Virus record (IMG/VR): IMGVR_UViG_3300018080_005419
Reading direction: 5' to 3' (one strand)
From: a virus
DNA length: 64,000 nt
In this document: positions 4,255-45,210 of the stretch, piece by piece
Layout of the letters: each line of letters starts with the position of its first letter
Position numbering within the stretch: position 1 is the first letter of the stretch
The notes under the pieces: generated by a model
Told to the model about the DNA's origin: nothing
Databases searched by the model: none
What the model saw: only the letters and a program-made list of their open reading frames with translations
Program-made: the position numbers and the translations under genes

Positions 4255-4871
4255 GAAATAGGCAAATCAAGAGCTTTCCAGCCAGCTACCGGAATTCCTT
4301 CAACAGGGCTAATTCCCATCCCATATTTTAAAGTAACCACATTATATCCTAAAAGCCTTAAAAGAGTCATAGTTTGGCTTGCTGTATGTCCAACATAGCA
4401 AATTAATACAATGGTTTTATCTTTAGGTAATTTTTCTAGGTTTTCAGGCTTAAATAAATCTAACCAAAATATATTAATTGTTCCTTCAATATGTCCTTTT
4501 TGAAAATCATCTGGTTTTCGAATATCCAATAAGAAAAGATCATCGGTTTGGTCGTTATCTATTTTCTTTTTAAGATCTTCAGGAGTAATATAATTCCAAT
4601 TTTTGTCTACTTTGGATATGTATTGAGATATCTTATCTTCCATTTTATTAGTAGATTGAGCTTGATCTGTGGCTAGCTCATAAAAAACAGACTCAAGATC
4701 ATGCACATCATATCCATTTTCTTCTGCCCATTTATGAACTACTGGATCTTTTGGATTTGGATTATCTTGGAGAAATTTTTTAACCTCTTCTTTTGAAGGA
4801 GATTCCTTAGCAATTTTCAGTTTGCTAAGTTTTTCGGCAATTTTTGCAATTCTGTTTATATTTTTGTTCAT
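4251..4871 (-). CDS. Rhodanese-domain protein with RIA-type leader
   Basis: LLDIRKPDDFQKGHIEGTINI and VLICYVGHTAS active-site loop; N-terminus RIAKIAEKLSKLKIA. Confidence 0.85.
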   Translation of the reverse strand: MNKNINRIAKIAEKLSKLKIAKESPSKEEVKKFLQDNPNPKDPVVHKWAEENGYDVHDLESVFYELATDQAQSTNKMEDKISQYISKVDKNWNYITPEDLKKKIDNDQTDDLFLLDIRKPDDFQKGHIEGTINIFWLDLFKPENLEKLPKDKTIVLICYVGHTASQTMTLLRLLGYNVVTLKYGMGISPVEGIPVAGWKALDLPIS

Positions 4872-11641: not shown

Positions 11642-13267
11642 TTATTCCACAGGCACAGATTCAATCCCACCTTCCTTAACCATCTCATAGAACTTCCTTT
11701 TTCCTGCCAATCCTGAAAATAGCTTTCTATTAATATCGATAGGATGCATATAGGCCGTTCCTAATTTGTCTAAAGCATGCATAAATTCATCTTCATTTTG
11801 AGCTTCTTCTACAAGTTCAGCAAGCTTTTTCAGAGATGCTTCTAGTTTGCTTGTTTTAGGAGCTTTTGGATTTGATGGTTCTAAAAAACTTTGAGAACTA
11901 GGAGCACTAACATCTCTTTCCATGATTTTTTGCATAGCTTTAGAGACATCGATTGTAGGTGTACTTATTTTAATACGTTTTCCTGTTAAATCAGCTAAAT
12001 ATTGAATTGCTTTATCTACACTGGAAAATAGAACTTGTTGACCGTAATGCTCTTTTAGCTCTTTGAAATATTTAGGATAAGATTTTTCAAGATATTTGAG
12101 TCTTTTCTTGCTTAACTTTCCTAATGTGCCCTTTTGAAGCATTGTATTATGATATATAGTTCTTTCAATGTCGTCGCCTAAAAGAAATTGAATATCCTTC
12201 CAGGGAGTGTTGTTTGCTACTCTTTCAACATTAATATAAATGCTCCAAGATCCATCATAATCTTGTTCCCATTCCCAATATAAGCTGTTATCTTCAGCTA
12301 CTTCTTCAAAAAGCTCGAAAAGATCTTTTGCGCCTATATCTCCTATATCTAATTCTTCATCATACCCTTCTTGCATATCTTCTACTTTATCTTCAAACTT
12401 ATTCTCAAGCGCTTTAACATAATCATCCTGTGCCCAACTATCCCATGCATCTCTCTCATAATCTCTTTGTTGTTCATAAGGAGGCTCATTACTTCTATAA
12501 TTTTCATATGCATTAGATCTTTCAAATGCTCTCTCTAAATCTAACTTTTCTATTAAAGGCATTAGTTCGTCTATTTCATCGGCTTCTATAGGATCATTTG
12601 TGACATTATTAAACATTTCATCACTAGGACTAAATAGAGCATAATAGCTTCTATTTGGTTTTGTGAACAGCCATAGGGGTTTATAGCCTTCATAATTATC
12701 TTGTTCATTTACACACCATTTAGTTTGATGTGCGAATAATGGTTGTCCCTCTTCTTCCCAACTTCCATCAATTAAATAAGCGTGATATCCATTTAAAACC
12801 AAGTCGGGAGTTTTAAGTATTTGTTCTCTCTTATCGTTTGCCAATTCTTCTTCTGTGTCTTCAATAAAGCTAATGAGATCTGCACCCTTTTGGAAATCCT
12901 TTAACTTTTTAGATGTTTTGCCTTTTCCTCTTAGATTGTTTAGCTTTCTTATTGCATCTTTAATTTCTTCTTTTCTATAAACATTAGACATATATGGAGG
13001 ATTATCAAAATACCACTCTAAAAGAATATGAATAGATTTAACACTCTTCTTTAAATTGCCATCAAATTTTGGATCTATACGAGCAATTTCAACGATTTCT
13101 TGTTGTACTCTATGATCTTCCCAATTTTTAGATATACTCACGCGCTTTCTAAATCTTTCTACTAATTCAGGCATTAGGTCTTCAAGAGATTTAGCAATAA
13201 GAATCCGGCTACCTGTTAAATTAGCTAGATATTGAAAAGCCAAATTAGCATTGGAAAATTTTAGCAT
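11642..13267 (-). CDS. Large acidic protein with N-terminal and internal leader modules and a 'KWCV' domain
   Basis: MLKFSNANLAFQYLANLTGSRILIA; internal LFSSVDKAIQYLADLTGKRIKIS; TKWCV...LWLFTK...YYALF. Confidence 0.85.
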   Translation of the reverse strand: MLKFSNANLAFQYLANLTGSRILIAKSLEDLMPELVERFRKRVSISKNWEDHRVQQEIVEIARIDPKFDGNLKKSVKSIHILLEWYFDNPPYMSNVYRKEEIKDAIRKLNNLRGKGKTSKKLKDFQKGADLISFIEDTEEELANDKREQILKTPDLVLNGYHAYLIDGSWEEEGQPLFAHQTKWCVNEQDNYEGYKPLWLFTKPNRSYYALFSPSDEMFNNVTNDPIEADEIDELMPLIEKLDLERAFERSNAYENYRSNEPPYEQQRDYERDAWDSWAQDDYVKALENKFEDKVEDMQEGYDEELDIGDIGAKDLFELFEEVAEDNSLYWEWEQDYDGSWSIYINVERVANNTPWKDIQFLLGDDIERTIYHNTMLQKGTLGKLSKKRLKYLEKSYPKYFKELKEHYGQQVLFSSVDKAIQYLADLTGKRIKISTPTIDVSKAMQKIMERDVSAPSSQSFLEPSNPKAPKTSKLEASLKKLAELVEEAQNEDEFMHALDKLGTAYMHPIDINRKLFSGLAGKRKFYEMVKEGGIESVPVE

Positions 13268-13725
13268 TATTCTTCCTCGTCTGGATCTGGAGCTAAATTT
13301 TTTCCAGCTTTAATTGAATCGAAAATAATCTTACCTTCTTCAGGAGACTCACCTTTAGGATGGAAGCTAAGGGTTTTCTCTTCTCCACGTTCAAAAAATG
13401 CTCTGTCGTGAATTGGGTCTACTGTACTGTACCAAACGCCTTCATGAAATTGACTGCTTGATGGTTCTGCTGCACCTTCTTTCAACATATAATCAATCAT
13501 CTCATATAAAGAATCAAATTCCATATCTTTATGCTCAAATCCAGTTTCGGCATAATCTCCTGCTCTTGCTGATTCTTCAGTTACAATCTGATATGTGACA
13601 TCAAGTTTAAAATCTTGGAAAAGAGTCTGCTGTCCATCGTATGCAGCAATAATAACTTTCTTACCCGTCATATCAGAAAGGTGTTGAATTGCTTCTTGTT
13701 CACTGCTAAAATTGAGTTCACGCAT
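13267..13725 (-). CDS. Leader-module acidic protein
   Basis: LNFSSEQEAIQHLSDMTGKKVIIAA; AAGGAG RBS. Confidence 0.85.
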   Translation of the reverse strand: MRELNFSSEQEAIQHLSDMTGKKVIIAAYDGQQTLFQDFKLDVTYQIVTEESARAGDYAETGFEHKDMEFDSLYEMIDYMLKEGAAEPSSSQFHEGVWYSTVDPIHDRAFFERGEEKTLSFHPKGESPEEGKIIFDSIKAGKNLAPDPDEEE

Positions 13726-13863
13726 TGTTTAATCTCCTTATTTGCCTTCTACACAATATACTCCAAATATTCAAAAATATTAAAATACATATAACTACTT
13801 AGAAATAAAACAATTAAATATTTTTAAAAAGATATGAAATTTTTGGAGGGAGTTTTGTTTATA

Positions 13864-14043
13864 TTATTTAGAAAGGATCTCGATAGGATATGTTTTTAAG
13901 AGGCAAACTGTACAAATAGTTCCGTCTTCGCACATTTGGTCGAAAATTTCGTTGATCTTTTTCTTTGTTAATCTTTTGCAATCAAGAGGGATTGTTTCTT
14001 TGTGTCCGCATTGAAGTTTGAAAGTTATTGATTTCTGTGCCAT
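13864..14043 (-). CDS. Small Cys-containing protein MAQKSITFKLQCGHKE...CTVC (59 aa, absent from ORF track)
   Basis: ATG 14043, TAA 13864-13866, AGAAAGAGAG upstream; CGH...CxxC suggests zinc binding. Confidence 0.55.
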   Translation of the reverse strand: MAQKSITFKLQCGHKETIPLDCKRLTKKKINEIFDQMCEDGTICTVCLLKTYPIEILSK

Positions 14044-14046
14044 AAT
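14018..14046 (+). promoter_or_regulatory. Possible sigma70 promoter for the tRNA
   Basis: TTGAAA-17 bp-CATAAT about 30 nt upstream of the tRNA; overlaps the start of the antisense small ORF. Confidence 0.4.
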
Positions 14047-14076
14047 AGGTTAAACTCTCTTTCTAAAAAGATAAAA

Positions 14077-14148
14077 GCGCCCGTCGTCCAATGGTTAGGG
14101 CTCAGATCTCTAAAATCTGTTATAGGAGTTCGATTCTCCTCGGGCGCA
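14077..14148 (+). tRNA. Amber suppressor tRNA (anticodon CUA), Glu-like scaffold
   Basis: Complete cloverleaf: acceptor GCGCCCG/CGGGCGC, D arm GTCC-AATGGTTA-GGGC, anticodon arm CAGAT-CTCTAAA-ATCTG (CTA at 14110-14112), 4-nt variable loop, T arm AGGAG-TTCGATT-CTCCT, discriminator A; followed by CTA, not CCA. Confidence 0.92.
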
Positions 14149-14188
14149 CTAATATTATCAAAGAATCAAACTTTTTCAAATAGTTTTC

Positions 14189-14217
14189 TTGACAAACGAA
14201 GGAATATAGAGCATAAT
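14189..14217 (+). promoter_or_regulatory. Sigma70-type promoter of the Pth operon
   Basis: TTGACA-17 bp-CATAAT; predicted TSS ~14224-14225 coincides with the start of a structured RNA. Confidence 0.75.
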
Positions 14218-14224
14218 AGACAAT

Positions 14225-14323
14225 ACTTGCAACTGGCTTGAATGGTAGATACGGAAGCCATAGGATATGTGACCCCGTACTATATTCTGAAAAGAACGAA
14301 TCAAGGTCATCCCCAGTGCAAGT
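14225..14323 (+). ncRNA. Structured 5' leader RNA / candidate ncRNA
   Basis: Nested stems ACTTGCA.CTGG/CCAGTGCAAGT, CTTGA/TCAAG, GTAG.TACGG/CCGTACTAT and a TTCT-GAAA-AGAA tetraloop hairpin. Confidence 0.55.
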
Positions 14324-14342
14324 GTTCAGAAAAGGAAAAGAA

Positions 14343-14669
14343 ATGACCTAGGTAAAACACTGGAACTATATTCTCCTCCGTACTGATCTTCCAATAGATC
14401 AACAAATCGTCCAATCCGCCCATGCAGCTTATGAGGCGGCTTTATATTTGGACCAACCTCGCTCTCCTGTTAATTCCTTGGTTATTTGTGCTGTGCCTAA
14501 TGAAAACGCTCTGCTAAAAGAGTATGAGCGTTTGGCATCCTATAATATCGATTCAATTCTATTTCAAGAGCCAGATAGAAACAATGAAGCAACGGCATTT
14601 TGCACAGAGCCGATTTCTAAAAAGAAGAGGAAGTTATTTTCAAAATGGAAACTTTGGAAGGAGAAATGA
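14343..14669 (+). CDS. Peptidyl-tRNA hydrolase 2 (PTRHD1-like) protein with in-frame TAG at codon 3
   Basis: AAGGA RBS 6 nt before ATG; ATG ACC TAG GTA ...YILLRTDL...QIVQSAHAA...FQEPD...TAFCTEP; the conserved N-terminal motifs lie upstream of the ORF-track start at 14448. Confidence 0.8.
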
Positions 14670-14670
14670 A

Positions 14671-14778
14671 ATGCGTTAGGCAAAAGCTCGTGGACCTCCT
14701 TTTTGGATTTCAGAAATGGCTTTAGGGCTAGTTTGTAGCAAGTTTAATTTAAGTACTTTGTTAATCTTAAACTTGTAA
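14671..14778 (+). CDS. Putative leader/arrest peptide MR*AKARGPPFW... with TAG at codon 3
   Basis: AAGGAG RBS 7 nt before ATG 14671; ATG CGT TAG GCA AAA GCT CGT GGA CCT CCT; open to TAA at 14778. Confidence 0.5.
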
Positions 14779-14842
14779 TAATTCTTAAAAACAGTTTTGT
14801 CAGAAAAAGATATACAAATTTCTGTCAAAAAGGAGAATCAAA

Positions 14843-15139
14843 ATGACTGCTATTGAGACGAAAAATGAAGTTCGCAAAGAGATTTTAGAAACAAAGGAAA
14901 AGATCAAGGCATTAGCTGCAATTCAAAAAGAAGAAAAACAACTTTTAAGAATGCCACATAATAAAATTCCAACAATAGATATTAAACTTCGTAGTGGAAA
15001 TGTTTATCAATGTGGCGGAATTGATCGTGCAGGTCGTTTAATGAGTATAACCAGAGAAAGAGCATATAAGATTACCAAACTCCATATTAAATATAATCGT
15101 ATGCGAGGAAAGCCAACAGATATGCATGAGTACAAATAA
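14843..15139 (+). CDS. Hypothetical protein (KEKIKALA...YNRMRGK type)
   Basis: AAGGAG RBS; basic helical protein downstream of the RGPP ORF. Confidence 0.75.
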   Translation: MTAIETKNEVRKEILETKEKIKALAAIQKEEKQLLRMPHNKIPTIDIKLRSGNVYQCGGIDRAGRLMSITRERAYKITKLHIKYNRMRGKPTDMHEYK

Positions 15140-15150
15140 GGAGAAAAATA

Positions 15151-15549
15151 ATGGACATCGAACAAGAAGATATTGAGAAGTTTTTTGAAATTTATGAAGA
15201 CGTAAAACAAAAGATTGATGATATTGGGAACCTTATTAAATTTGGGAAAAAGAATGACTGGAGTTTAGAGGATTTCGAAGAGCACGGAGGAAATGTTAAA
15301 GCCTTCTTTGAGTATTGGCCCTCTTGTGGTTGTTGCGGCCCTGAACGTTGCTCTGTAGAAATTCCTATGCATTTGCTTTGGAATGAAAATGGCGAAGAAA
15401 AAGCACTTGAGTTAGGGAAAAGAAACCGCTTTATTGCCAAACAAGAAAAAATCAAGAAAGAGCGAAAAGAGAAATTAGAAAACAAAAAGAGAAACAAAGA
15501 AAAAGAACTGGCTGAATACAAAAGATTAAAAGAAAAGTTTGAAAATTGA
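15151..15549 (+). CDS. Hypothetical protein
   Basis: AAGGAG RBS; CGCC motif; coiled-coil C-terminus. Confidence 0.75.
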   Translation: MDIEQEDIEKFFEIYEDVKQKIDDIGNLIKFGKKNDWSLEDFEEHGGNVKAFFEYWPSCGCCGPERCSVEIPMHLLWNENGEEKALELGKRNRFIAKQEKIKKERKEKLENKKRNKEKELAEYKRLKEKFEN

Positions 15550-15688
15550 TGTAAATATCTTAAACACAATGACGTTATGGGGTCAGAACTAAAAATCTGG
15601 CCCTATATTTTTTAAAAAGTTCAATCAAATCTCTCTAAATAGAATATAATATATTGTTGATTGTTTGTTTAAAAGAAAGTATATAACA

Positions 15689-15970
15689 ATGCCAGAGATA
15701 GAGTTTGAAGCAAAACCCAGTGGAGATATGGAGTGCTTTTGCTGGGATGTTACAGAAGAAGAGTACAAAAGAGTTGTCGGAAAAGATGACTATCAATTTG
15801 AAAAAGAATACAGAGAAGAAAGCCATCATGAAGAATATTTAAGAGAATCAGGATTGCCACCTTCTCCTTGGTTTCTTTATCCTGGACATATATTGAGAGC
15901 TATGGGTTTCGATCCAAGCAAAAGTGAAAGTCTAAGAGTGAAAATGATTGTAGAAAAAATTGAAGCCTAA
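15689..15970 (+). CDS. Hypothetical acidic protein
   Basis: ATG 15689 (ORF track starts at 15665). Confidence 0.7.
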   Translation: MPEIEFEAKPSGDMECFCWDVTEEEYKRVVGKDDYQFEKEYREESHHEEYLRESGLPPSPWFLYPGHILRAMGFDPSKSESLRVKMIVEKIEA

Positions 15971-15975
15971 ATAAA

Positions 15976-16416
15976 ATGCCAAGAAATATAATCCGATTTT
16001 ATAGACACACTCAGCCTTGTTTTTGCTTTTCGAACTTTTTTAAGTTTCCAATAGTTCTTAAAGATAAAATATGGCCTACTTCGGAACACTATTATCAAGC
16101 CCAAAAATTCACAAATACTGAATATGAAGAAAAGATCAGGCTTCTCAAAACACCAAAACAAGCAGCAAATATGGGCAGAGACAGATCCCTTCCTCTAAGA
16201 AAAGATTGGGAAGAAGTTAAAAATGAAATTATGTACGAAGCTTTAACGGCCAAATTTTCCCAATCAAAAGAATTAAAATCTATTCTTCTAGCAACAGGAA
16301 ATGCAATATTGATAGAAGACTCGCCTAAAGACTATTATTGGGGATGCGGAAAAGATAATACAGGAAAGAATATGCTTGGGAGATTGTTGATGAAAATTCG
16401 CAAACAAATGAGGTAA
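15976..16416 (+). CDS. NADAR (YbiA-like) family protein
   Basis: FSNFF...WPTSEHYYQAQKF...A.MGR...RKDWE.VK..IM...L.AKF...LL.TG...LIEDSP.DYYWG.G...G.N.LGR.LM.IR. Confidence 0.95.
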   Translation: MPRNIIRFYRHTQPCFCFSNFFKFPIVLKDKIWPTSEHYYQAQKFTNTEYEEKIRLLKTPKQAANMGRDRSLPLRKDWEEVKNEIMYEALTAKFSQSKELKSILLATGNAILIEDSPKDYYWGCGKDNTGKNMLGRLLMKIRKQMR

Positions 16417-16424
16417 CAAGTAAA

Positions 16425-16646
16425 ATGTTTAATATTAACAAAAACAAGAGAGATGGGATATTAATTTTCGTACTCGTTTTTGCATTTATTGTGATGGTTT
16501 TATTTTGCATTCATCACATAATAATATATCGCGAAAATGTAGCCAATCAAAAGAAAGTACAAGAATTAGAAATGGAACAAATGAGAATTAAATTACAACA
16601 ATTACAAGAGAAAAAATGTACCGAAACCCAGAGTAGAGAAGAGTAG
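16425..16646 (+). CDS. Single-pass membrane protein with coiled coil
   Basis: One hydrophobic segment followed by a Q/E-rich helix. Confidence 0.7.
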   Translation: MFNINKNKRDGILIFVLVFAFIVMVLFCIHHIIIYRENVANQKKVQELEMEQMRIKLQQLQEKKCTETQSREE

Positions 16647-16710
16647 TAGGATGAGAATGGAATGCAACGGTTTTATTTAGTTTTTAAAAGAGAAAGGCAA
16701 CAGAAGTAAA

Positions 16711-16866
16711 ATGGGTAAGACAAGAAGACATGACGAATTTTTGGAAGATGATTTTGATAACAACAGAAAAAACAAGAAAAAGAAAAATCAAACAATAAGA
16801 GAAAACAGAAAAAAAGCAAGGGAAAGAAGAGAAAGGGGTGACTATGCAACAATCTTAGAACAATGA
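16711..16866 (+). CDS. Small basic protein MGKTRRHDEF... (51 aa, absent from ORF track)
   Basis: ATG 16711, TGA 16864-16866; K/R-rich. Confidence 0.55.
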   Translation: MGKTRRHDEFLEDDFDNNRKNKKKKNQTIRENRKKARERRERGDYATILEQ

Positions 16867-17526
16867 CTCTTGTTTATCACTAATATCGGGCGCTTCAACA
16901 ACCCAAAATGTGACATCAAGATCGTTATTCCAAGCTAAATTACTACGTCTATTTCCCGAGAATCCATAATAGGTTTTCGGGAATTTTATTAAGATAGGTG
17001 CTTCTAACTCTATTTTTATTTTTTCATTTAATCTATCTCTAAGTTGTGTATATCCTTCTCTATATGTTGGATCTTGTATTTCTTCCTGGAAATCTTTAGG
17101 ATCCTTTGTAATGTTCATAGCAGGATTGACACCAAATTTACTTATTTTTTGGAGCTTACCGTTACTTAAGAAATCAATTAATTCTTTATCTGTTTTAAAA
17201 GAATAACCCATTTTAGCAAAGAAACGCCTAGTAGGATCGTTTTCAAAATACTCACCTGCCTCATCCGCAAAATCAGGCTTTATCCACTTGATTTCTTTTT
17301 GTGGAGGATTGAGTTGATTTGAGACTTCTTTTGTTGAAACTCCATATTCTTTAGCGGCTTGTGCTATTGCTACTCCATACGGTTTACCTTTTTTTTTAAC
17401 TAAAAATCTAACTCTATCTGCTGCCTTTTCTATTTCTCTTGAGGCAGCAACAATAATACGCTTACCTGTCAAATCAGATAAGTATTGGATAGCTTCTGAT
17501 GTACTAGAAAATTTAATTTGCTGCAT
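16855..17526 (-). CDS. Leader-module protein with HTH-like segment and ParB/Srx-like C-terminal domain
   Basis: Likely start MQQIKFSSTSEAIQYLSDLTGKRIIVAA at 17526; APILIK...FSGNRRS; ends QESLF. Confidence 0.8.
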   Translation of the reverse strand: MQQIKFSSTSEAIQYLSDLTGKRIIVAASREIEKAADRVRFLVKKKGKPYGVAIAQAAKEYGVSTKEVSNQLNPPQKEIKWIKPDFADEAGEYFENDPTRRFFAKMGYSFKTDKELIDFLSNGKLQKISKFGVNPAMNITKDPKDFQEEIQDPTYREGYTQLRDRLNEKIKIELEAPILIKFPKTYYGFSGNRRSNLAWNNDLDVTFWVVEAPDISDKQESLF

Positions 17527-17628
17527 TTTGTATCTTTCTAAATAAACTGTATCTAATATTAAGAAAAGATATCCAGTTTTTATGAATAGTTTTTCCATTA
17601 GTAGAGAACAGATAAAGGAGGAAAGAAA

Positions 17629-18564
17629 ATGAATATATTGCAAGCTATTATTGATTTTTTCTGGATGTTTAGGAAAAAGCCAAAAGAGAGTAAACCCGAA
17701 AATAATGAAGGAGAAAATAATATGTCAGAAGAAACGAATACGGCCCCAGCTATTGTTCCGAAAAGAGAAAAAAGAGCATTGTTAGTTGGTATTAATAAAT
17801 ATAGAATTCCTGCTGCTAATTTAAATGGCTGTGTTAATGATGTAGAAGATATTTATCATCTTCTCACAACTACCTATGATTTTAAGCCAGATAATATAAG
17901 AGTAATTGTTGATGAAAGAGCCACTAAAGCAGAAATTGAAAAAAGATATAAATGGATTCTTTCTTCAACAAAAGAAAATGATGAAGCGCTTATATATCAT
18001 AGCGGACATGGAAGTCAATGGAGGGATCGTTCTGGAGATGAGCTTTCTGATAAATTAGATGAAATTTTAATAACTCATGATCATACCTGGAGAGATCCTT
18101 TAACTGATGATGTTATCGGAGAATATTTTAAGCAGTTAGTTAAAGGTGCATATCTCACAATGATAGTTGATGCCTGTCACTCTGGAACAATCACTAGATC
18201 TTTTATTGGAAACCCTGAACCATATGCTATTCGTTATTTGCAGCCTCCATTTGATATTGCAGCAAGAAGTATTGGAAGAGATATGCCTTTAAGATTTGTT
18301 GGGGCTAAAACTGGGGATGAAGAAAATCAAAGACATATTCTTTTATCTGGTTGTAAAGAAAGCGAAACAAGCAAAGAATTAAGATTAGGAACAAAAATTA
18401 GAGGAGCGTTAACCTATAATTTAACGAAACTATTAAGAGAAAATCCGAATATGACATGGAAAGAAGTACAACAAAAAATTATACCATTAGTAAAAAGACT
18501 AGATCAAGAGCCACAATTGAGAGGTATGACGGAACTTAAACAACGTAAAGTTTTTGGAGGATAA
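17629..18564 (+). CDS. Caspase-family (C14, metacaspase-like) protease
   Basis: KRALLVGINKY, LNGCVND, YHSGHG (His), VDACHSG (Cys), GALT; AAGGAGG RBS. Confidence 0.92.
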   Translation: MNILQAIIDFFWMFRKKPKESKPENNEGENNMSEETNTAPAIVPKREKRALLVGINKYRIPAANLNGCVNDVEDIYHLLTTTYDFKPDNIRVIVDERATKAEIEKRYKWILSSTKENDEALIYHSGHGSQWRDRSGDELSDKLDEILITHDHTWRDPLTDDVIGEYFKQLVKGAYLTMIVDACHSGTITRSFIGNPEPYAIRYLQPPFDIAARSIGRDMPLRFVGAKTGDEENQRHILLSGCKESETSKELRLGTKIRGALTYNLTKLLRENPNMTWKEVQQKIIPLVKRLDQEPQLRGMTELKQRKVFGG

Positions 18565-37577: not shown

Positions 37578-39035
37578 CTACTCTATGGCCGTTAAGTCCA
37601 GTAAATGTCTGCTCTTTCCATTATAAAAGCAACCATCACTGTCAATATCAAACTTCCTTAACGGCACTGTCATAATATGCCCAGTTATCAAAGTTTTTTC
37701 AAGATCGTCAAAATGCTTCTCCCAAACAAAGAAAGATATGTCGTCAAAGTCGTCTGAAAATTCCACTATCCACATAGGATTCCCAGACTTTTTGGACACT
37801 GTTTTCTTAATTTTTCCTATAACTCCAAGGAAAACGCCCTCTTCCGTGTTCTTCAATTCTTCTATCTTTGAGATTCCATATTCGTCTAATTTATCGTATG
37901 TTTCCATAGGTATTAACGAATGGCTTAATGAAATTCCTAATAATTCTTCTTCTGCGCTTTTTCTTTCTTCTTCTCCAAAATGCACATACTCATAAGTTTT
38001 TTCTTTCCTTATTTCTCCTAAAAATTGATTAATCATAAATTCACGGTCGCCAAAACAATCAAAAGCGCCAGATTTAATCAGAGCCATAATTTTAGATTTA
38101 TTACACTTTCTTTTTTCAACCTTATCGTAAAAATCTTTGAGGGAGTTGAACGGCCTTTTAGTAAGAACTTCATTGGCACCAGCAGGACCTAAATTCTTAA
38201 TCATACTCAGGCCCCATCGAATAGTGTTTCCTTCTAAGGTGAATTTGTTTTCAGAATTGTTTACATCAGGGGGAATAATAGAAATACCCATCTTTCTAGC
38301 ATATTGAATATATTTTTTAAGAATGCTGCCACCTCTCTTATCCTTTTTGGCAATATCTGTAAAGTTTAAGAGAGCAGCCATAAATTGTATAGGGAAATGA
38401 ACTTTAAGGAATAATGACCAATATGCTACCATTGCATAAGATGCTGCGTGGCTTAAGTTGAAACCGTAGCCCCCATAATTTTTAAGAGTTTCAACAAAAG
38501 TATCTAATTGATCTTGCGTTATAAGTCCGTCTTTGACAGATTTTTGCGAACGTTTTTTAAAGTCTTCTAATAAAACTTGTAGTTTCTTCATTGTTTCAGC
38601 ATTATCTTTTCCCTTTGCTAATCCTTTTCTTAGAGCATTAGCTTCAGCACCAGAAAATCCTGCTAAACGTCTAGCAATTGCCATTGCACTTTCTTGGTAG
38701 ATTGGGAGATTGTAGGATCTATCCAGAACATCAGCAACAGCAGGAATCGACTCCCATCTTTCATATCCCTTCTTTCTCTTACCGTAAGTAACATGTAAAT
38801 TACCACTCAAAGGATCTGGTCTTCCCAAAGTAGTAGCAGCATACATATCAGCGAATGAATCAATCCCTATCTCTTTAATAATCCCAATAGCAACATCTGT
38901 CTCAAATTGAAAAATGCCAAATACATCTAATTTGTTCAAACGCTTAAAGCATTCTTGATCATCATCTGGAACTTTAGCCATATCAAGTGGTTCTGGAGAT
39001 ACATTTTCTACAATACCAGGGTCAATTTTAAGCAT
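37578..39035 (-). CDS. dnaE: DNA polymerase III alpha, C-terminal fragment
   Basis: GIFQFE, LGRP, PIYQE, LRKG..K, YGFNLSHAASY, PPDVN.S, IRWGLSMIKNLG, OB fold; own AAAGGA RBS. Confidence 0.92.
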   Translation of the reverse strand: MLKIDPGIVENVSPEPLDMAKVPDDDQECFKRLNKLDVFGIFQFETDVAIGIIKEIGIDSFADMYAATTLGRPDPLSGNLHVTYGKRKKGYERWESIPAVADVLDRSYNLPIYQESAMAIARRLAGFSGAEANALRKGLAKGKDNAETMKKLQVLLEDFKKRSQKSVKDGLITQDQLDTFVETLKNYGGYGFNLSHAASYAMVAYWSLFLKVHFPIQFMAALLNFTDIAKKDKRGGSILKKYIQYARKMGISIIPPDVNNSENKFTLEGNTIRWGLSMIKNLGPAGANEVLTKRPFNSLKDFYDKVEKRKCNKSKIMALIKSGAFDCFGDREFMINQFLGEIRKEKTYEYVHFGEEERKSAEEELLGISLSHSLIPMETYDKLDEYGISKIEELKNTEEGVFLGVIGKIKKTVSKKSGNPMWIVEFSDDFDDISFFVWEKHFDDLEKTLITGHIMTVPLRKFDIDSDGCFYNGKSRHLLDLTAIE

Positions 39036-39105
39036 TTCTCTATTTTCCTTTATATTTTTCCTAACAAGTGTGAATCTATTTTTACTTCAAACGGAGAATA
39101 ATAAA

Positions 39106-39375
39106 ATGGAAGAAAGACAAGATGAAGTTATTTTTCAAACCGCAGAAGAAGCTTTCCAAAAACTTGCCGATTTAACAGGCAAGAAAATAATGGTTCCTGA
39201 TAAGGCTGAACCAACAGTAGCAGAAGAAAATCAAGAAGAAGAAGCTGTTACTGGAGGCACAACAAAAGAATTAGCCGACAAGCTTAGAGAACAAGGTGAA
39301 AAATACGGAGAAGCAGCTGACAAATTAGAAGACATTGATTCTGAAATTGAATCTTTCGGAACAGCAATTGAATAG
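39106..39375 (+). CDS. Leader-module acidic protein lying antisense between the dnaE fragments
   Basis: GGAG RBS, ATG 39106; VIFQTAEEAFQKLADLTGKKIMV. Confidence 0.8.
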   Translation: MEERQDEVIFQTAEEAFQKLADLTGKKIMVPDKAEPTVAEENQEEEAVTGGTTKELADKLREQGEKYGEAADKLEDIDSEIESFGTAIE

Positions 39376-39378
39376 CAA

Positions 39379-41976
39379 TTAATCTAAACTCATCTCTAAA
39401 GCTGTTTCAGGAATTCCAATTAATTGATGTCCTGGCTCTAAGTCCCTAACTGTTGTTTCGTATATTTCTCCTTCCCAGTCTACTTCTACAATATCGTCTT
39501 CCTTTAAACGTATTAATCGACCGTCTTCTAATTTGATGACGGTCGTAGTTTTTTCAATTAGATCTAAAGCGTCTGAAATAATAGAAATCGTTCTTAATCC
39601 AAGAATGTCATATTTAACCAATCCAACTTCCTGAAGTTCTTTTAATGCTAATCCTTCAGTCCAACAAGCAACAACTTCTGCTTCGTCTTTGCCATCTTTT
39701 TTAGTTGTTAATTTTCGTACAGGAATCCATTTAGTAAGATCAACAGATGCTACAATCATACCTGCCGGATGTTTACCTATATTTCTAATTTGACCTCTTA
39801 AAGCTTTACATGCATTACTCATATAAGGATGTGCGTCAATTAGTCCTTTAATTGTTGGCTCTTTTTCTAACAAAGAACCCCAATCCATTTTATCAAGAGC
39901 GTCACCATCACTATCCGGATCATCATCATCTTTATATTTATCGTTCAATCCTTTAGTAATTGCATTTAAAAATCCAGGCTCAATACAAAAAACTCGTCCA
40001 ACATCTTTAATTGCTGTCTTTGTCCAAATTAATTGATAAGATCCAATACTACAAACGTGCTCTTCTCCAAATAATTTTCCCATTGCTTCTTTTACTTCTC
40101 GTCTATATCTTGGATCAACGTCCCAATCAATATCAGGAGGGTCAGATCTAGATTCGTCTAAAAATCGCTCGAAAAGAAGATTATACTTAATAGGATCAAG
40201 TTTTGTAATTTCTAAACAATACGATATTAAAGAACCAGCAGCACTTCCACGGCCAGGACCAGTCAATATCTTATGTTCTTTGCAATATTCAACAATCTTT
40301 CTGAAAATTAAAAAATAATCAGCAAAGTCAAGGTTTTCAATAACAGATAGTTCATGTTCCAATCTTTCTTCATATTTTGATTTGCCTGAAAGTTTAAATT
40401 TATCCATACCTTCTCGACAAAAAGATTTTAAATCAGCATTAGAATTATCACTCATCTTTGGTAATTTAATGGACGTATCAATGTCAAAGTTTTCAATAGA
40501 TCTAGCTAAACTTCTTGTGTCTCGAATAGCTTTCCAAAATATTTCCTCTGTAAAAACATCATCTTCGGGACCATGCATATCTTTCCAAGACTCGTATAAT
40601 TCATCTAATGTCTTAAAGTAGAAATCCTTTCCTTCAAACTCCCATACAGCATCTTCATTCAGAGACTTATCTAAATTACCTTCCCCTTTCATGATTCTAT
40701 CGGCATTTTCATCAAATACAGGAAGACAAGCCTCATATCCATTATCTTCTAAAAATTTACGAGCATATAAAAGACCATCTTGCAATATTGCTTGTTTACT
40801 TTCTAATTCGTTTTCTTCCTTCCATCTATCTGTTTTCGGATCTATTTCAAAACCTTCAGATGTTAATTTGGGCTTCATATATCCAGCAGCAACAGACATG
40901 GCTTTATCAACCATTGTTTTATTGTCTCGTATCATCAACAAAATATCGTGAACTTCTGAGTCTTCTTTTCTTAAATAATGTACATCTGTTGTAATTACAT
41001 ATTTAGCACCAACCCACTCACCAAATGCAATGAGCTTCCTATTAATGTCTATTTGTTCTTCCCATTCAATTAGGTTTAACTCGATATAAAAATCATCAAA
41101 AATGCTCTTATAAAAATCGTATCTCTCTTTTGCTATTTCTAATCTTTTATCCCAGGACACTTTTTCGTCATTTAGGATAGTAGGAATTTCTCCAGCGCCA
41201 CCATCAGTAGAAGTTGCAATGACTCCTTCTCCATGTTCTGCTAAAAAGTCACAATCTGTTCTTGGTTTATAATAGAATCCGTTTAATTCAGCATCGTTTT
41301 GAATTTGAATTATATTGAACCATCCCTTTAAATTTTTAGCCAATAGGATTTGATGAAAATTCCGACGATACTTCAACTTCATTTCGCCATCCATGTCTTT
41401 ATATGTTTCTTTCGGCAATTTTCTATATTGATTTAAATAAGCTTCAACTCCAAAGACGGGTTTCATTCCCAATTTTTTAGCCAGAATATATTGTTTTACC
41501 CATCCTCCAAGCGAACCATGATTTGTTGCTGTAAGATAAGTCCATCCCCTTTCCATCATTAGGTCTGCTCTTTTTTGTGCTGTTCCTAATCCATCACGCA
41601 AACTATATTCGTCATGTAAATGGAAATGAGCAAAATCTTCTAATGCTACCCTCTCAATAGTAGACAAAGTATCGTCGTCAATTTCGTCATCAATTCGAAC
41701 TGTTAAGTAATCCTTTATAGTTGGAGGATTGTCGCAATGGGAAAAGATTACAAGATTCGGATTGCAAATTTCTAATTCTTCTTGGAGAATTTCGGCATAA
41801 TTTTCATGATCCTTCAAGGTCACAAAAATGCACTGTTCTTTATCCAGATCAAGTCGTTCAAGGGTATAATCACAGTATTCTTGAGATGGTTCACTTTCTG
41901 TAACTATAACAAAATTATAGGACTTACGCTGAGGAGTTACAGGTTCAATATCTGGCAAATCAAGATAGGTAGGCAT
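39379..41976 (-). CDS. dnaE: DNA polymerase III alpha, N-terminal fragment (PHP + palm) with Hint-like C-terminal tail
   Basis: HFHLHDEYS..DG, TNHG, GPGRGSAAGS, PPDIDWD, GKHPAG, KYDILGL; ~110-aa N-terminal extension; 56-aa non-DnaE tail. Confidence 0.93.
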   Translation of the reverse strand: MPTYLDLPDIEPVTPQRKSYNFVIVTESEPSQEYCDYTLERLDLDKEQCIFVTLKDHENYAEILQEELEICNPNLVIFSHCDNPPTIKDYLTVRIDDEIDDDTLSTIERVALEDFAHFHLHDEYSLRDGLGTAQKRADLMMERGWTYLTATNHGSLGGWVKQYILAKKLGMKPVFGVEAYLNQYRKLPKETYKDMDGEMKLKYRRNFHQILLAKNLKGWFNIIQIQNDAELNGFYYKPRTDCDFLAEHGEGVIATSTDGGAGEIPTILNDEKVSWDKRLEIAKERYDFYKSIFDDFYIELNLIEWEEQIDINRKLIAFGEWVGAKYVITTDVHYLRKEDSEVHDILLMIRDNKTMVDKAMSVAAGYMKPKLTSEGFEIDPKTDRWKEENELESKQAILQDGLLYARKFLEDNGYEACLPVFDENADRIMKGEGNLDKSLNEDAVWEFEGKDFYFKTLDELYESWKDMHGPEDDVFTEEIFWKAIRDTRSLARSIENFDIDTSIKLPKMSDNSNADLKSFCREGMDKFKLSGKSKYEERLEHELSVIENLDFADYFLIFRKIVEYCKEHKILTGPGRGSAAGSLISYCLEITKLDPIKYNLLFERFLDESRSDPPDIDWDVDPRYRREVKEAMGKLFGEEHVCSIGSYQLIWTKTAIKDVGRVFCIEPGFLNAITKGLNDKYKDDDDPDSDGDALDKMDWGSLLEKEPTIKGLIDAHPYMSNACKALRGQIRNIGKHPAGMIVASVDLTKWIPVRKLTTKKDGKDEAEVVACWTEGLALKELQEVGLVKYDILGLRTISIISDALDLIEKTTTVIKLEDGRLIRLKEDDIVEVDWEGEIYETTVRDLEPGHQLIGIPETALEMSLD

Positions 41977-43660: not shown

Positions 43661-44057
43661 GCTTTTTGGTAGCAAAGAAAAAGAAGCTACATTAAATATC
43701 AATCTCAATATTAAAGTGAAAGACCTCGACAGATTTGTCGAGGTTCTTTCAAAAATATCTCATAACTCGAATAACAACTTCAATAATAGGGATATAATAG
43801 AAGAAAGAGAAGTCAATAATAAAAATCAATCTGAGGAAAGACAAATTATTAATAAACCCATATCTGAAAAGAAAAAACATTTAAGTGAGGATCCTATTAC
43901 AGCAAAAGATGTAGCTGAAATATTTAATTCAACTGGCATCCAAAAAGGAGTTGATAAAACAGGATCTGACCTTTATAGTCACTCAAAAGGATCTAGTACA
44001 GATAACCAAGTTTCATCTTTAAAGAAACTCAAGAAAAAAGGAAATCAAAATGGTTAA
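43638..44057 (+). CDS. Hypothetical protein
   Basis: ORF overlapping its neighbours. Confidence 0.7.
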   Translation: MLKEIWAKLFGSKEKEATLNINLNIKVKDLDRFVEVLSKISHNSNNNFNNRDIIEEREVNNKNQSEERQIINKPISEKKKHLSEDPITAKDVAEIFNSTGIQKGVDKTGSDLYSHSKGSSTDNQVSSLKKLKKKGNQNG

Positions 44058-45210
44058 AGAGAAAAAAGAAATTGCAGAAGTTCAAGACATTACAGATGAA
44101 GTTTTAAAGGCTGCTGAAAAACCAATTCAAAGAAAAGCTGTTACTGATGAAAATACAAAATATGGTGTTGGTCTAGATGTAGGAACAGCATTTGTTGTAG
44201 GTTCACGTCAAATCGATGATAAGGTTGAATTCAGATCGATCCGAAATGCTTATTATGCAATGCCCCCAAATCCGGTTATGCAAAAATTATTAACTGACGC
44301 AAGTAAAAAAGACAATGATTCTGAAAATGATCATGGTGGAACGGGTTATCTAGAAATGAATGGCGAAATTATTGTTATTGGAGAAAAAGCTTTAGCCTAT
44401 GCTGCAAGTAATCATTCTAATACTCGTAGACCAATGCAAAAAGGTGTTCTTTCACCCGATGACAATGCGGAAGCAATCATGTCTGTTCTGGTACAAAAGG
44501 CATTAGGAGAACCAAAAAAGAAAAATGAAGTTTGTCGTTTTTCTGTTCCTGCTGAGCCTTTTGATGACAAAGATATCGACATTATTTTCCATGAAGGTAT
44601 GGTTTCGGCTATTCTTGAAGATCTGGGTTATTCTGCACAAGCTATTAATGAAGGTGAAGCAATCTGTTATAGTGAATTGTCATCGGAAGAAGATCGTTTG
44701 ACTGGTGGCGCTTTTTCTCTTGGTGGCGGACAAAGCAACGGTTGTATTATGTTTGAAGGTCGTCCTGTGATTAGCTTCAGTGTTGCTCGTGGTGGTGACT
44801 GGATAGATGAAAAGAGCTTCAAGCATGCAAGAATGCAAAGTGCTGCCGAAATGACCTATTTTAAAGAGAATAATAAAGTTGATCTAATAAGTCCTAAAGG
44901 TTGCACAGATAATGATAGAGCAGCAGCAGCATTAGCTATGTATTATCGTTATCATATTCGATCTCTAGTTGAAGCTGTATCTGATCTGATCTCTAAAGAA
45001 AAAGTAGTGCCGACATTTGATAAACCAATTAAGTGGGTTGTTGGTGGTGGAACTTCGAGGGCAGTAAACTGTGTTCAAATGATAAAAGACGAGTTTTCTA
45101 AACAAAAATTGCCATTTGTCTTAGAAGATGTTGTCCAGGCAGAAAATCCAATGACATCTGTTTCAAATGGATGTTTGATTGCTGCAAGGCTGGATGAAGA
45201 TGAAGAATAA
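44050..45210 (+). CDS. Actin-fold ATPase (FtsA/MreB/ParM-like)
   Basis: VGLDVGT (phosphate 1), AINEGEA (connect 1), FSLGGGQSN (phosphate 2), VVGGGTS (adenosine), VSNG. Confidence 0.85.
   Translation: MVKEKKEIAEVQDITDEVLKAAEKPIQRKAVTDENTKYGVGLDVGTAFVVGSRQIDDKVEFRSIRNAYYAMPPNPVMQKLLTDASKKDNDSENDHGGTGYLEMNGEIIVIGEKALAYAASNHSNTRRPMQKGVLSPDDNAEAIMSVLVQKALGEPKKKNEVCRFSVPAEPFDDKDIDIIFHEGMVSAILEDLGYSAQAINEGEAICYSELSSEEDRLTGGAFSLGGGQSNGCIMFEGRPVISFSVARGGDWIDEKSFKHARMQSAAEMTYFKENNKVDLISPKGCTDNDRAAAALAMYYRYHIRSLVEAVSDLISKEKVVPTFDKPIKWVVGGGTSRAVNCVQMIKDEFSKQKLPFVLEDVVQAENPMTSVSNGCLIAARLDEDEE

What the first reader, a model, noticed from the sequence alone, without database searches (positions are those of the whole stretch)
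14077..15139. Amber-gated translation module: suppressor tRNA + structured leader RNA + TAG-interrupted peptidyl-tRNA hydrolase + TAG/RGPP peptide + downstream gene
Seen: within about 1.1 kb, all on +, are a canonical tRNA with anticodon CUA, a TTGACA-17-CATAAT promoter, a ~100-nt structured RNA starting at the predicted TSS, and two consecutive ORFs. Each ORF has a good RBS and TAG as its third codon (ATG ACC TAG, 14343; ATG CGT TAG, 14671). Elsewhere in the window TAG is an ordinary stop. Known: two-codon minigenes such as the lambda bar minigenes cause peptidyl-tRNA drop-off that Pth must recycle, and RAPP/RGPP-type motifs stall ribosomes. Inference: this is a dedicated switch, not genome recoding. 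Without suppression the ORFs behave as drop-off minigenes. With the tRNA charged, or host RF1 impaired, the hydrolase that recycles peptidyl-tRNA is made. It could sense the state of host termination or tRNA pools, or counter anti-phage translation shutdown. I know no name for this arrangement.
Basis: partly seen in the sequence, partly recalled or inferred. Interest (0 to 1): 0.92.

Follow-up and report, generated by a model that had tools for sequence, protein, structure and literature searches.

The report
Suppressor-tRNA-gated phage translation switch
A large phage carries its own tRNA that reads the stop codon UAG, beside two reading frames that each hold a deliberately placed early UAG, so their products should be made only when that tRNA works; about 70 other phages, several lab-grown, share the design, and I found no paper describing it.

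Summary
A canonical tRNA with anticodon CUA (14077-14149) lies upstream of a promoter, a gene with UAG as codon 3 (14343-14669) and a short ORF with UAG as codon 3 followed by Arg-Gly-Pro-Pro (14671-).

The gene has the PTH2 peptidyl-tRNA hydrolase fold. TAG is otherwise an ordinary stop: 13 of 80 likely genes in the window end in it and none is split by it.

The decisive evidence is comparative:
- Of 89 non-redundant relatives, 58 have an in-frame TAG at codons 3-7 and about 12 more do by eye. One has TGA instead, next to a tRNA-UCA. None has TAA.
- Cultured phages GAP32, ME3, Arash, RsoM2USA and XacN1 show the same gate, and all five carry a tRNA-CUA.
- In ME3 this gene is the only gated gene in 235 kb.
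- The short ORF recurs as 26 distinct peptides with RGPP, RAPP or RSPP after the stop. Its Pro-Pro region pairs with the next gene's ribosome-binding site, and the pairing covaries.

My reading is a lock-and-key switch driven by stop-codon read-through, with an arrest-peptide leader. Its purpose is unresolved. The "structured leader RNA" is not supported. This scan had already noted the same module on other DNA.

The parts
14018..14046 (+). Promoter-like site in front of the tRNA (TTGAAA-17-CATAAT with TG)
   Evidence: Consensus scan, 10 of 12 matches. Consensus match only.
14077..14149 (+). tRNA with anticodon CUA (amber suppressor). Anticodon loop CUCUAAA, no encoded CCA. This is the key of the switch.
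   Evidence: ARAGORN. Rfam tRNA 60.3 bits. CUA tRNAs lie beside the homologous gene in 38 of 70 TAG-gated loci.
14189..14217 (+). Promoter TTGACA-17-CATAAT of the gated operon
   Evidence: 11 of 12 matches. The homologous promoter sequence is present in L001.
14225..14342 (+). 5' leader. Not conserved and weakly structured. Holds TGGTAGATACGG (14243-14254), which resembles the start of the arrest leaders of relatives.
   Evidence: Fold z-score -1.63. Absent in L001 and L003. No Rfam match.
14343..14669 (+). PTH2-fold (peptidyl-tRNA-hydrolase-like) gene, 108 codons, with in-frame UAG as codon 3 (14349-14351). This is lock 1.
   Evidence: Translation. Profile against PDB PTH2, E 2.4e-7. AlphaFold pLDDT 90.8 and Foldseek TM 0.72-0.79 to PTH2 structures. 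Gate conserved.
14671..14778 (+). Leader ORF M-R-UAG-A-K-A-R-G-P-P..., with UAG at 14677-14679 and RGPP codons at 14689-14700. This is lock 2, a stop-gated arrest peptide.
   Evidence: Translation. 26 distinct homologous leaders carry RGPP, RAPP or RSPP after the stop. Synonymous codon variation at R, G/S and P. RGPP is a known strong arrest motif (PMC12992588).
14696..14705 (+). 5' arm of the masking helix (CUCCUUUUUG), overlapping and following the Pro-Pro codons
   Evidence: Perfect 10-bp complement to 14826-14835. Paired in the MFE fold. Matched against mismatched duplex test.
14826..14835 (+). 3' arm of the masking helix (CAAAAAGGAG), which is the Shine-Dalgarno region of the next gene
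14843..15139 (+). Regulated downstream gene, 98 aa, predicted helical hairpin, function unknown. The family follows the leader in relatives.
   Evidence: tblastn and alignment. AlphaFold pLDDT 79.7. No Pfam, PHROG, fold or Atlas match.
15151..15549 (+). Next gene of the same transcription unit, 132 aa, Cys-rich, unknown function
   Evidence: ORF list. Homologue in L001. No Pfam or PHROG match.
15576..15607 (+). Terminator-like hairpin followed by a T run, the likely end of the operon
   Evidence: Consensus scan.

Best explanation
This is a translational lock-and-key module. The phage tRNA-CUA is the key.

Lock 1 is a UAG placed as codon 3 of a PTH2-fold gene, in the tail just before the first beta-strand. 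Without read-through the ribosome releases a dipeptide. With the charged suppressor the full enzyme is made, whichever amino acid is inserted.

Lock 2 is a short leader ORF that starts one base after that gene's stop. Only a ribosome that reads through its UAG reaches Arg-Gly-Pro-Pro, a known ribosome-arrest motif. The stalled ribosome covers the sequence at and after the Pro codons. That sequence otherwise pairs with the Shine-Dalgarno region of the next gene, so the stall frees that site and the 98-aa protein is made.

Shown: the anatomy, its conservation, the match of stop codon to anticodon, the covarying helix, and the PTH2 fold.

Inferred: read-through, the stall, the unmasking, and the purpose. 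My favoured purpose, at low confidence, is to tie production of a peptidyl-tRNA recycling enzyme and its partner to the moment and level at which stop-codon read-through is active in the infected cell.
For: Conservation of the gate: of 89 non-redundant homologous loci, 59 pass an automatic test. The test asks for a start codon with a Shine-Dalgarno run, 2-6 sense codons, an in-frame stop, then the domain. Of these, 58 use TAG, 1 uses TGA and 0 use TAA. The stop is codon 3 in 30 of them. The next base is a purine in 58 of 59. In 57 of 59 no SD-preceded start lies between the stop and the first strand. About 12 more loci are gated by eye.

Stop matches anticodon: 38 of 70 TAG-gated loci hold a tRNA-CUA in the fetched stretch and none holds another suppressor. 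The TGA-gated gene (L035) has a tRNA-UCA 362 nt upstream. The only TGA-bearing leader (L134) sits in the locus that carries a tRNA-UCA.

Cultured phages: GAP32, ME3, Arash and RsoM2USA show the gate, and XacN1 and Xoo-sp13 show it on an HD::PTH2 fusion. GAP32, ME3, Arash and RsoM2USA carry a tRNA-CUA. The XacN1 authors report two CUA tRNAs with no identified target.

ME3 whole genome: 302 likely genes, 32 ending in TAG. The scan returned two start-proximal TAG candidates; the second is the stop of the preceding gene, which leaves the PTH2-like gene. The TAA and TGA controls give none, and there is no excess of TAG-split genes.

Window: 13 of 80 genes end in TAG and none is split.

Fold: profile against PDB PTH2 gives E 2.4e-7 over the full length. 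The AF2 model has pLDDT 90.8 and Foldseek TM 0.72-0.79. The first strand starts at residue 6.

Leader: 26 distinct peptides (18 RGPP, 5 RAPP, 3 RSPP) lie 0-6 codons after the stop. Arg uses 5 codons, Gly 4, Ser 3 and Pro 4, so selection acts on the peptide. RGPP, RAPP and RSPP are the arrest-competent cores reported in PMC12992588.

Helix: duplex energy between the Pro-Pro region and the next gene's RBS averages -18.1 kcal/mol for matched loci and -11.7 for mismatched ones, with 0 of 20000 permutations as good. Whole-leader folds pair at least 6 RBS bases with that region at P > 0.5 in 13 of 16 loci. In the window the helix is a perfect 10 bp.
Against: - No experiment or RNA or protein data bears on read-through, stalling or unmasking.
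- The amino-acid identity of the tRNA could not be established.
- The nascent chain at the proposed stall is only 10 residues here, and 8-17 in relatives. PMC12992588 states that a RAPP-like core alone is insufficient and needs an N-terminal neighbour region.
- In the window the helix closes a 120-nt domain, so its stability in vivo is uncertain. In 3 of 16 loci the fold does not predict it.
- The gene fails the Pfam PTH2 gathering score (17.7 against 23 bits) and lacks the Gly-Lys-Gly-Lys loop of PTH2, so hydrolase activity is an inference.
- About half of the gated loci show no tRNA-CUA inside the fetched flanks. Many of those flanks are short, and in XacN1 and RsoM2USA the tRNA lies far away.
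- A closed loop, in which the tRNA's only evident target in ME3 is this gene, leaves the selective purpose unexplained.
Confidence: 0.75

Rival explanations
1. The phage uses genetic code 15 (TAG read as an amino acid) throughout or in its late genes. On this view the two TAGs are ordinary sense codons with no special gating role.
For: Some relatives have a second, internal TAG in the same gene (L024, L025, L030-L032, L037, L040, L041). Gene callers used TAG=Q for P0002. Phage stop-codon recoding with suppressor tRNAs is documented (bioRxiv 10.1101/2021.08.26.457843, listed). Only 64 kb of a 211-kb contig was visible.
Against: In the window 13 of 80 genes end in TAG, none is split by TAG, and reading TAG through adds no real coding. 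The same holds for the whole ME3 genome. The XacN1 authors found nothing behind 18 amber stops. Random sense use would scatter TAGs, not fix one at codons 3-7 in about 70 diverged genes.
Confidence: 0.07
2. M-T-stop is a two-codon upstream minigene. The enzyme is made by re-initiation at a non-canonical codon just after it, and no read-through occurs. The tRNA-CUA neighbour serves another purpose.
For: In the HD::PTH2 fusions (XacN1, Xoo-sp13, L034, L123) and in IkeLoa (ATG-TAG-GTG) a canonical start follows the TAG within 0-5 codons.
Against: A minigene would accept any stop codon. The stop is TAG in 58 of 59 cases, never TAA even in AT-rich phages, and is TGA exactly where the neighbouring suppressor is UCA. 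In 57 of 59 loci no SD-preceded start lies before the first strand of the fold. The base after the stop is a purine in 58 of 59, a context I recall as favouring suppression.
Confidence: 0.06
3. Only the PTH2-like gene is gated. The TAG/RGPP ORF is a chance or vestigial ORF, and the CCUCC run is simply an anti-Shine-Dalgarno element that masks the next gene's RBS with no role for the peptide.
For: Pro-Pro codons (CCU CCU) are by nature complementary to GGAGG, so some pairing is expected in any locus; mismatched pairs still reach -11.7 kcal/mol. Cultured phages have the gated gene but no such leader.
Against: The peptide motif is kept through synonymous changes, including CGN/AGR and AGY/TCN switches. 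The variants seen (RGPP, RAPP, RSPP) are the arrest-competent ones. A start codon with SD and an in-frame stop 0-6 codons before the motif are present in all 26 leaders. The one TGA leader sits with a tRNA-UCA. In several loci the helix uses bases after the Pro codons that differ between loci yet stay complementary.
Confidence: 0.1
4. The TAGs are sequencing or assembly errors, or recent nonsense mutations in a decaying gene.
For: A single C-to-T change turns CAG into TAG. The deepest run that holds the stretch may be the source itself.
Against: The same stop at the same place occurs in about 70 independent contigs with 31-68% protein identity and very different G+C, including finished genomes of cultured phages. 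Two other studies' contigs carry the leader's TAG unchanged.
Confidence: 0.01

Closest known systems
RAPP/RGPP-type regulatory arrest peptides (ApdA, ApdP, ApcA; SecM with RAGP; Streptomyces RAPP/RGPP uORFs; PMC12992588, PMC10987492, PMC10951233)
   Same: A short upstream ORF ends in or contains Arg-(Ala/Gly/Ser)-Pro-Pro. A downstream gene's ribosome-binding site is sequestered by pairing with the region that a stalled ribosome would cover.
   Different: The arrest motif lies behind an in-frame stop codon matched to a phage-encoded suppressor tRNA, so the sensed input would be read-through and not protein export. The nascent chain is only 8-17 residues. There is no signal peptide or membrane segment. 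The host is a phage and the regulated gene is unrelated to Sec/YidC.
Stop-codon recoding in phages (code 15 or 4 in crAss-like, Lak and other phages; bioRxiv 10.1101/2021.08.26.457843, PMC9523058)
   Same: A phage-encoded suppressor tRNA and in-frame TAG in phage genes. Read-through was proposed there to time gene expression.
   Different: In those phages TAGs are scattered through many, mostly late, genes and TAG is not used as a stop. Here the surrounding genes use the standard code with TAG stops, and the in-frame TAGs are confined to one or two fixed, start-proximal positions.
prfB (release factor 2) autoregulation by an early in-frame UGA
   Same: An early in-frame stop codon in a translation-factor gene is used to couple its expression to the cell's termination capacity (established knowledge).
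   Different: prfB is rescued by +1 frameshifting, not by a suppressor tRNA. It senses RF2. No frameshift site is evident here.
PTH2 peptidyl-tRNA hydrolases (archaeal Pth2, human PTRH2/Bit1; PDB 2zv3, 3erj, 1wn2, 1q7s, 1xty)
   Same: Same fold over the full length (TM 0.72-0.79). The R-x-D-L ... Q-x-x-H-A and D ... T-A motifs are shared.
   Different: Below the Pfam gathering score. The Gly-Lys-Gly-Lys loop is absent. A distinct invariant set is present (R13, D15, Q24, H27, E54, E76, D78, T84). This is a very large, mostly viral family of 5033 50%-identity clusters. Activity is untested.
Lambda bar minigenes and minigene-induced peptidyl-tRNA drop-off
   Different: bar minigenes are stand-alone toxic elements in pth-defective hosts. 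Here the 'minigene' is the in-frame start of the hydrolase-like gene itself and is tied to a cognate suppressor.
Engineered amber-codon translational switches with orthogonal tRNAs (PMC6412442)
   Same: Placing UAG early in a gene makes its expression depend on a suppressor tRNA.
   Different: Those are synthetic. This would be a natural, widely conserved counterpart.

Membership tests
tRNA (Rfam RF00005), amber suppressor | Cloverleaf that scores above the Rfam gathering score | tested here: met
   60.3 bits against a cut-off of 29. ARAGORN also calls it.
tRNA (Rfam RF00005), amber suppressor | Anticodon CUA in a 7-nt loop with U33 and A37 | tested here: met
   Loop CUCUAAA.
tRNA (Rfam RF00005), amber suppressor | Aminoacylation and decoding of UAG in vivo; identity of the amino acid | not testable with these tools
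   Comparison with 60 other phage tRNAs was inconclusive, with weak likeness to tRNA-Lys(CUU) in some loci.
PTH2 peptidyl-tRNA hydrolase (Pfam PF01981) | Score above the Pfam gathering threshold | tested here: not met
   17.7 bits against 23, E 0.0043.
PTH2 peptidyl-tRNA hydrolase (Pfam PF01981) | PTH2 alpha/beta fold over the whole protein | tested here: met
   Profile against PDB 2zv3, E 2.4e-7. Foldseek probability 1.00 and TM 0.72-0.79 to six PTH2 entries.
PTH2 peptidyl-tRNA hydrolase (Pfam PF01981) | Catalytic residues of Pth2 (Lys of the Gly-Lys loop, Asp and Thr near the C-terminal strand; recalled from the Sulfolobus Pth2 literature) | tested here: inconclusive
   Asp78 aligns with the PTH2 Asp, and an invariant Thr84 follows. 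The Gly-Lys-Gly-Lys loop is missing.
PTH2 peptidyl-tRNA hydrolase (Pfam PF01981) | Hydrolysis of peptidyl-tRNA | not testable with these tools
   Needs an enzyme assay.
RAPP-type regulatory arrest peptide | R-(A/G/S)-P-P core near the end of a short ORF | tested here: met
   RGPP at 14689-14700. There are 26 distinct homologous leaders.
RAPP-type regulatory arrest peptide | Lies upstream of the regulated gene, whose RBS is masked by a structure that a stalled ribosome would open | tested here: met
   Predicted only. Duplex test gave 0 of 20000 permutations as good. Folds predict it in 13 of 16 loci.
RAPP-type regulatory arrest peptide | Ribosome actually stalls, with dependence on the N-terminal neighbour region | not testable with these tools
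   PMC12992588 says the core alone is insufficient. Here only 6 residues precede it.
RAPP-type regulatory arrest peptide | Monitors protein localisation (signal or membrane segment, Sec/YidC gene downstream) | tested here: not met
   No such segment in a 10-residue chain. The downstream gene has no Sec/YidC relation.
Stop-codon-recoded (code 15) phage | Many in-frame TAGs in genes and TAG not used as a terminator | tested here: not met
   13 of 80 genes end in TAG and there are 0 TAG-split genes in 64 kb. ME3 gives the same result. The rest of the 211-kb contig was not seen.
prfB-type frameshift autoregulation | Slippery CUU-UGA site with an upstream SD-like stimulator and a +1 frame continuation | tested here: not met
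   The gene continues in the zero frame after the TAG.

The most novel reading that the evidence does not exclude
The module is a self-contained sensor or homeostat of genetic-code state. It would measure the balance between the phage suppressor tRNA and host release factor 1 at dedicated UAG 'test codons'. It would use the result to set the level of a PTH2-like enzyme and a small partner protein, and these would act back on the suppressor or on termination.

It would then be the natural target of the 'orphan' suppressor tRNAs of standard-code jumbo phages, and the evolutionary beachhead from which full TAG recoding arose.
Probability: 0.3. Interest if true: 0.95.

Novelty: new variant of a known kind. 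Interest (0 to 1): 0.88.

Why it matters
- **A target for orphan suppressor tRNAs.** Suppressor tRNAs in standard-code phages have had no known target; the XacN1 authors say so explicitly. This finding gives them one conserved target and a testable logic.
- **A natural amber switch.** It would be a natural counterpart of the amber-codon switches built in synthetic biology.
- **A new input for arrest peptides.** It would be the first arrest peptide whose input is stop-codon read-through.
- **A step toward recoding.** It offers a plausible intermediate on the road to stop-codon reassignment in phages.
- **Annotation errors.** The gated gene is mis-annotated or missing in public records. It is truncated in GAP32, ME3 and Arash, and tblastn lists no feature under the match in 13 records.
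- **Testability.** The gate exists in cultured phages of Cronobacter, Acinetobacter, Salmonella, Ralstonia and Xanthomonas, so the hypothesis can be tested directly at the bench.

Tried and rejected
- **Own genome.** None is held for this window.
- **Nucleotide search.** A search of 13000-17000 against 50,697 phage records found nothing. Only the protein search reached relatives.
- **Rfam.** Relaxed thresholds on 13700-15300 gave only the tRNA and a sub-threshold mirror match.
- **Leader RNA.** The 14225-14345 leader is rejected as a structured element: z -1.63, and not conserved.
- **tRNA identity.** Pairwise comparison with other phage tRNAs was inconclusive.
- **Downstream 98-aa protein.** No Pfam or PHROG family, no Foldseek match with E <= 0.001, and only low-score Atlas rows. 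Its family was not found in the five cultured phage genomes.
- **ME3 leader.** No RxPP leader was found in ME3.
- **Alignment A3.** It was too diverse for the search for related loci, so A1 was used. This biases the metagenome set toward the EPDRNNE subfamily.
- **Sequencing runs.** No RNA holder was listed. Only contigs were available, so nothing can be said on expression.
- **Second TAG candidate in ME3.** The candidate at 165388 is the stop of the preceding gene in the same frame, not a gate.
- **Literature.** Five searches found no description of the arrangement.
Full report
**What is in the window**

ARAGORN finds a single tRNA, at 14077-14149 on the + strand, with anticodon CTA. Rfam scores it at 60.3 bits.

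A TTGAAA-17-CATAAT site precedes the tRNA at 14018-14046. A near-consensus TTGACA-17-CATAAT site follows it at 14189-14217.

Downstream lie two reading frames:
- ATG ACC TAG at 14343-14351, which opens a 108-codon frame ending at 14669.
- ATG CGT TAG at 14671-14679, which opens a short frame reading M-R-stop-A-K-A-R-G-P-P.

After them come a 98-aa gene (14843-15139), a 132-aa gene (15151-15549) and a terminator-like hairpin (15576-15607).

The DNA has 34% G+C and comes from a 211,655-bp contig. It carries a split DnaE, a volactin-like gene, a caspase-domain gene and a NADAR gene. Its relatives lie in IMG/VR contigs of 100-500 kb. I therefore treat it as a huge phage.

**TAG is an ordinary stop here**

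- Of 80 non-overlapping likely genes, 57 end in TAA, 13 in TAG and 10 in TGA.
- No gene is split by an internal TAG.
- 14349 is the only TAG that follows an SD-preceded ATG and is followed by a long frame with no nearby start.

**The gene**

Pfam gives only a sub-threshold PTH2 match (17.7 bits). A profile of 28 homologues does better. It hits archaeal Pth2 structures over the full length, with 2zv3 at E 2.4e-7.

The AlphaFold model has pLDDT 90.8. It superposes on six PTH2 entries at TM 0.72-0.79.

The first strand begins at residue 6. The UAG (residue 3) therefore sits in the free N-terminal tail, where any inserted residue should be tolerated.

Nine residues are invariant: R13, D15, Q24, H27, A28, E54, E76, D78 and T84. 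The Gly-Lys-Gly-Lys loop of PTH2 is missing. Hydrolase activity is therefore an inference.

The family is very large, with 5033 clusters at 50% identity at E <= 0.001. Many database members begin M-x-Q or start inside the first strand. That pattern is what code-15 calls and truncated calls of a TAG-gated gene would look like.

**The gate is conserved**

The first five homologous contigs all had the early TAG. So did nearly all closer relatives among 37 IMG/VR loci.

After adding 80 metagenome loci, 89 non-redundant genes had a recognisable domain start. Of these, 59 passed an automatic test (start with SD, 2-6 sense codons, in-frame stop, domain):
- The stop is TAG in 58, TGA in 1 and TAA in 0.
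- The stop is codon 3 in 30 of them.
- The preceding residue is Thr in 25.
- The next base is a purine in 58 of 59.
- No SD-preceded start lies before the first strand in 57 of 59.

About 12 more loci are gated by eye but failed my SD or distance rule. About 18 loci, a distant 'KLYVLVR' clade, start normally.

**The stop matches the tRNA**

- A tRNA-CUA lies within the fetched stretch in 38 of 70 TAG-gated loci, nearly always on the same strand. No other suppressor occurs there.
- The single TGA-gated gene (L035: ATG AAG TGA GTT) has a tRNA-UCA 362 nt upstream.
- Ungated family members also tend to sit beside suppressor tRNAs (11 of 18). Two of them sit beside tmRNA genes.

**Cultured phages**

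tblastn finds the family in 36 phage records. The gate is present in:
- Cronobacter phage GAP32 (M-A-Q-stop)
- Acinetobacter phage ME3 (M-T-stop)
- Salmonella phage Arash (M-L-stop)
- Ralstonia phage RsoM2USA (M-L-stop)
- the HD-domain::PTH2 fusions of Xanthomonas phages XacN1 and Xoo-sp13

The public annotations there are truncated or absent.

tRNA-CUA was located in four of these phages and is reported for a fifth:

| Phage | Position of tRNA-CUA relative to the gene | Source |
|---|---|---|
| ME3 | about 0.5 kb upstream | |
| Arash | 1.3 kb downstream | |
| GAP32 | about 3 kb downstream | |
| RsoM2USA | about 13 kb away | |
| XacN1 | in the terminal repeats | |

The XacN1 authors report two CUA tRNAs and state that they could not identify target genes.

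Bixzunavirus IkeLoa has ATG-TAG-GTG at the annotated start, and a tRNA-CUA 250 nt after the gene. That case is ambiguous.

I rebuilt the 234.9-kb ME3 genome from twelve stretches. It has 302 likely genes, of which 32 end in TAG. The scan returned two start-proximal TAG candidates. The second is the stop of the preceding gene, which leaves the PTH2-like gene. The TAA and TGA controls give none, and TAG-split genes are no more frequent than controls.

**The short ORF is an arrest leader**

It recurs right after the gated gene, or elsewhere in the locus, as 26 distinct peptides. Each has a start, 1-7 codons, a stop, 0-6 codons, then the core. The core is RGPP in 18, RAPP in 5 and RSPP in 3.

Codons vary synonymously, including CGN/AGR and AGY/TCN switches. 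Selection therefore acts on the peptide.

RGPP and RAPP are the strongest known bacterial arrest cores, resistant to EF-P, and RSPP is permissive (PMC12992588).

The stop is TAG in 25 leaders. It is TGA in one (L134), whose locus carries a tRNA-UCA.

A conserved ~100-aa gene follows the leader.

The bases at and after the Pro-Pro codons are complementary to that gene's Shine-Dalgarno and start region. The sequences differ between loci while the complementarity is kept:
- Matched pairs average -18.1 kcal/mol and mismatched pairs -11.7, with 0 of 20000 permutations as good.
- Whole-leader folds pair the RBS with that region in 13 of 16 loci.
- In the window, 14696-14705 (CUCCUUUUUG) pairs perfectly with 14826-14835 (CAAAAAGGAG).

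The regulated protein is a predicted helical hairpin with no recognisable relatives of known function.

**How it most likely works**

The tRNA-CUA is a key for two locks. With the suppressor charged and able to compete with release factor 1, the ribosome reads codon 3 of the PTH2-like gene and makes the enzyme.

The leader starts one base after that gene's stop, so it may be translationally coupled to it. A ribosome that reads through the leader's UAG reaches RGPP and stalls. This frees the next gene's RBS. Without read-through, both frames end after two codons.

Read-through, stalling and unmasking are inferred. So is the purpose.

The link between PTH2-like genes and suppressor tRNAs holds even for ungated members. 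Neighbours include tmRNA, HD-domain and CCA-adding genes. These suggest that the enzyme handles tRNA-linked by-products of read-through. A feedback role on the suppressor itself is equally open.

**What does not hold**

The ~100-nt leader between the promoter and the gated gene is not significantly structured and is absent from close relatives. It contains TGGTAGATACGG (14243-14254). This is identical to the start of the L002 leader and may be a relic of a second arrest leader. It has no in-frame start. The minigene drop-off idea could not be tested.

**Literature and earlier notes**

Five full-text searches found no description of this arrangement. Earlier AI notes of this same scan describe the same module in at least 17 other genomes. 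I reached my reading before seeing them. I checked their central claim, that stop and anticodon match, on my own loci. They are not independent evidence.

**Verdict**

This is a widely conserved, apparently undescribed variant of arrest-peptide and read-through control, and it can be tested in cultured phages.

Noticed in passing
window 39379-41976 (-) and 37578-39035 (-): DNA polymerase III alpha is split into two genes. One holds PHP plus the NTPase domain and the other holds the finger plus HHH. A ~340-nt spacer between them holds a 101-aa ORF on the other strand (39070-39375).
   Followed up: no
window 44050-45210 (+): Strong match to Pfam Volactin (E 7e-56), an actin-like protein family, in a phage context.
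   Followed up: no
window 17629-18564 (+) and 15976-16416 (+): A caspase-domain (Peptidase_C14) protein and a NADAR-domain protein lie just downstream of the gated operon. The NADAR gene keeps its place in relative L001.
   Followed up: partly
window 11642-13267 (-), 13267-13725 (-), 16855-17643 (-): Three flanking proteins share a repeated motif of the form F-S-S-x-x-E-A-I-Q-Y-L-S-D-L-T-G-K-R-I near their N-termini. The 541-aa protein has it twice, once at the N-terminus and again at about residue 405. No Pfam or informative PHROG match.
   Followed up: no
window 14243-14254: TGGTAGATACGG in the 5' leader of the gated gene is identical to the W-stop-I-R start of the arrest leader in L002. It may be a relic of a second leader. 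It has no in-frame start codon.
   Followed up: partly
It lies between the gated operon's second gene and the arrest leader.
   Followed up: partly
L012 about 4400-4480 and L023 2850-2925: A tRNA-like element sits between the arrest leader and the regulated gene. It is called tRNA-Cys in L023 and is not called in L012.
   Followed up: no
L044 (XacN1 ORF364), L048 (Xoo-sp13), L034, L123; L045 2803-3366; L043 from 2818: An HD-domain protein is fused to the N-terminus of the PTH2-like domain in some phages and is encoded right after it in ME3 and GAP32. ME3 also has a CCA-adding enzyme gene about 2 kb upstream. This suggests a tRNA-repair context.
   Followed up: partly
L046 4307-4381 (Salmonella phage Arash): The record annotates this tRNA as tRNA-Phe, but its anticodon reads CUA.
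   Followed up: partly
L041 2350-2745 and L042 1548-1874: Phage-encoded tmRNA genes lie within about 2.5 kb of ungated PTH2-like genes and CUA tRNAs.
   Followed up: no
L002 and L006, end of the PTH2-like gene: In these relatives the gated gene also ends in TAG, immediately before the leader's start. Read-through would therefore also extend the enzyme.
   Followed up: no
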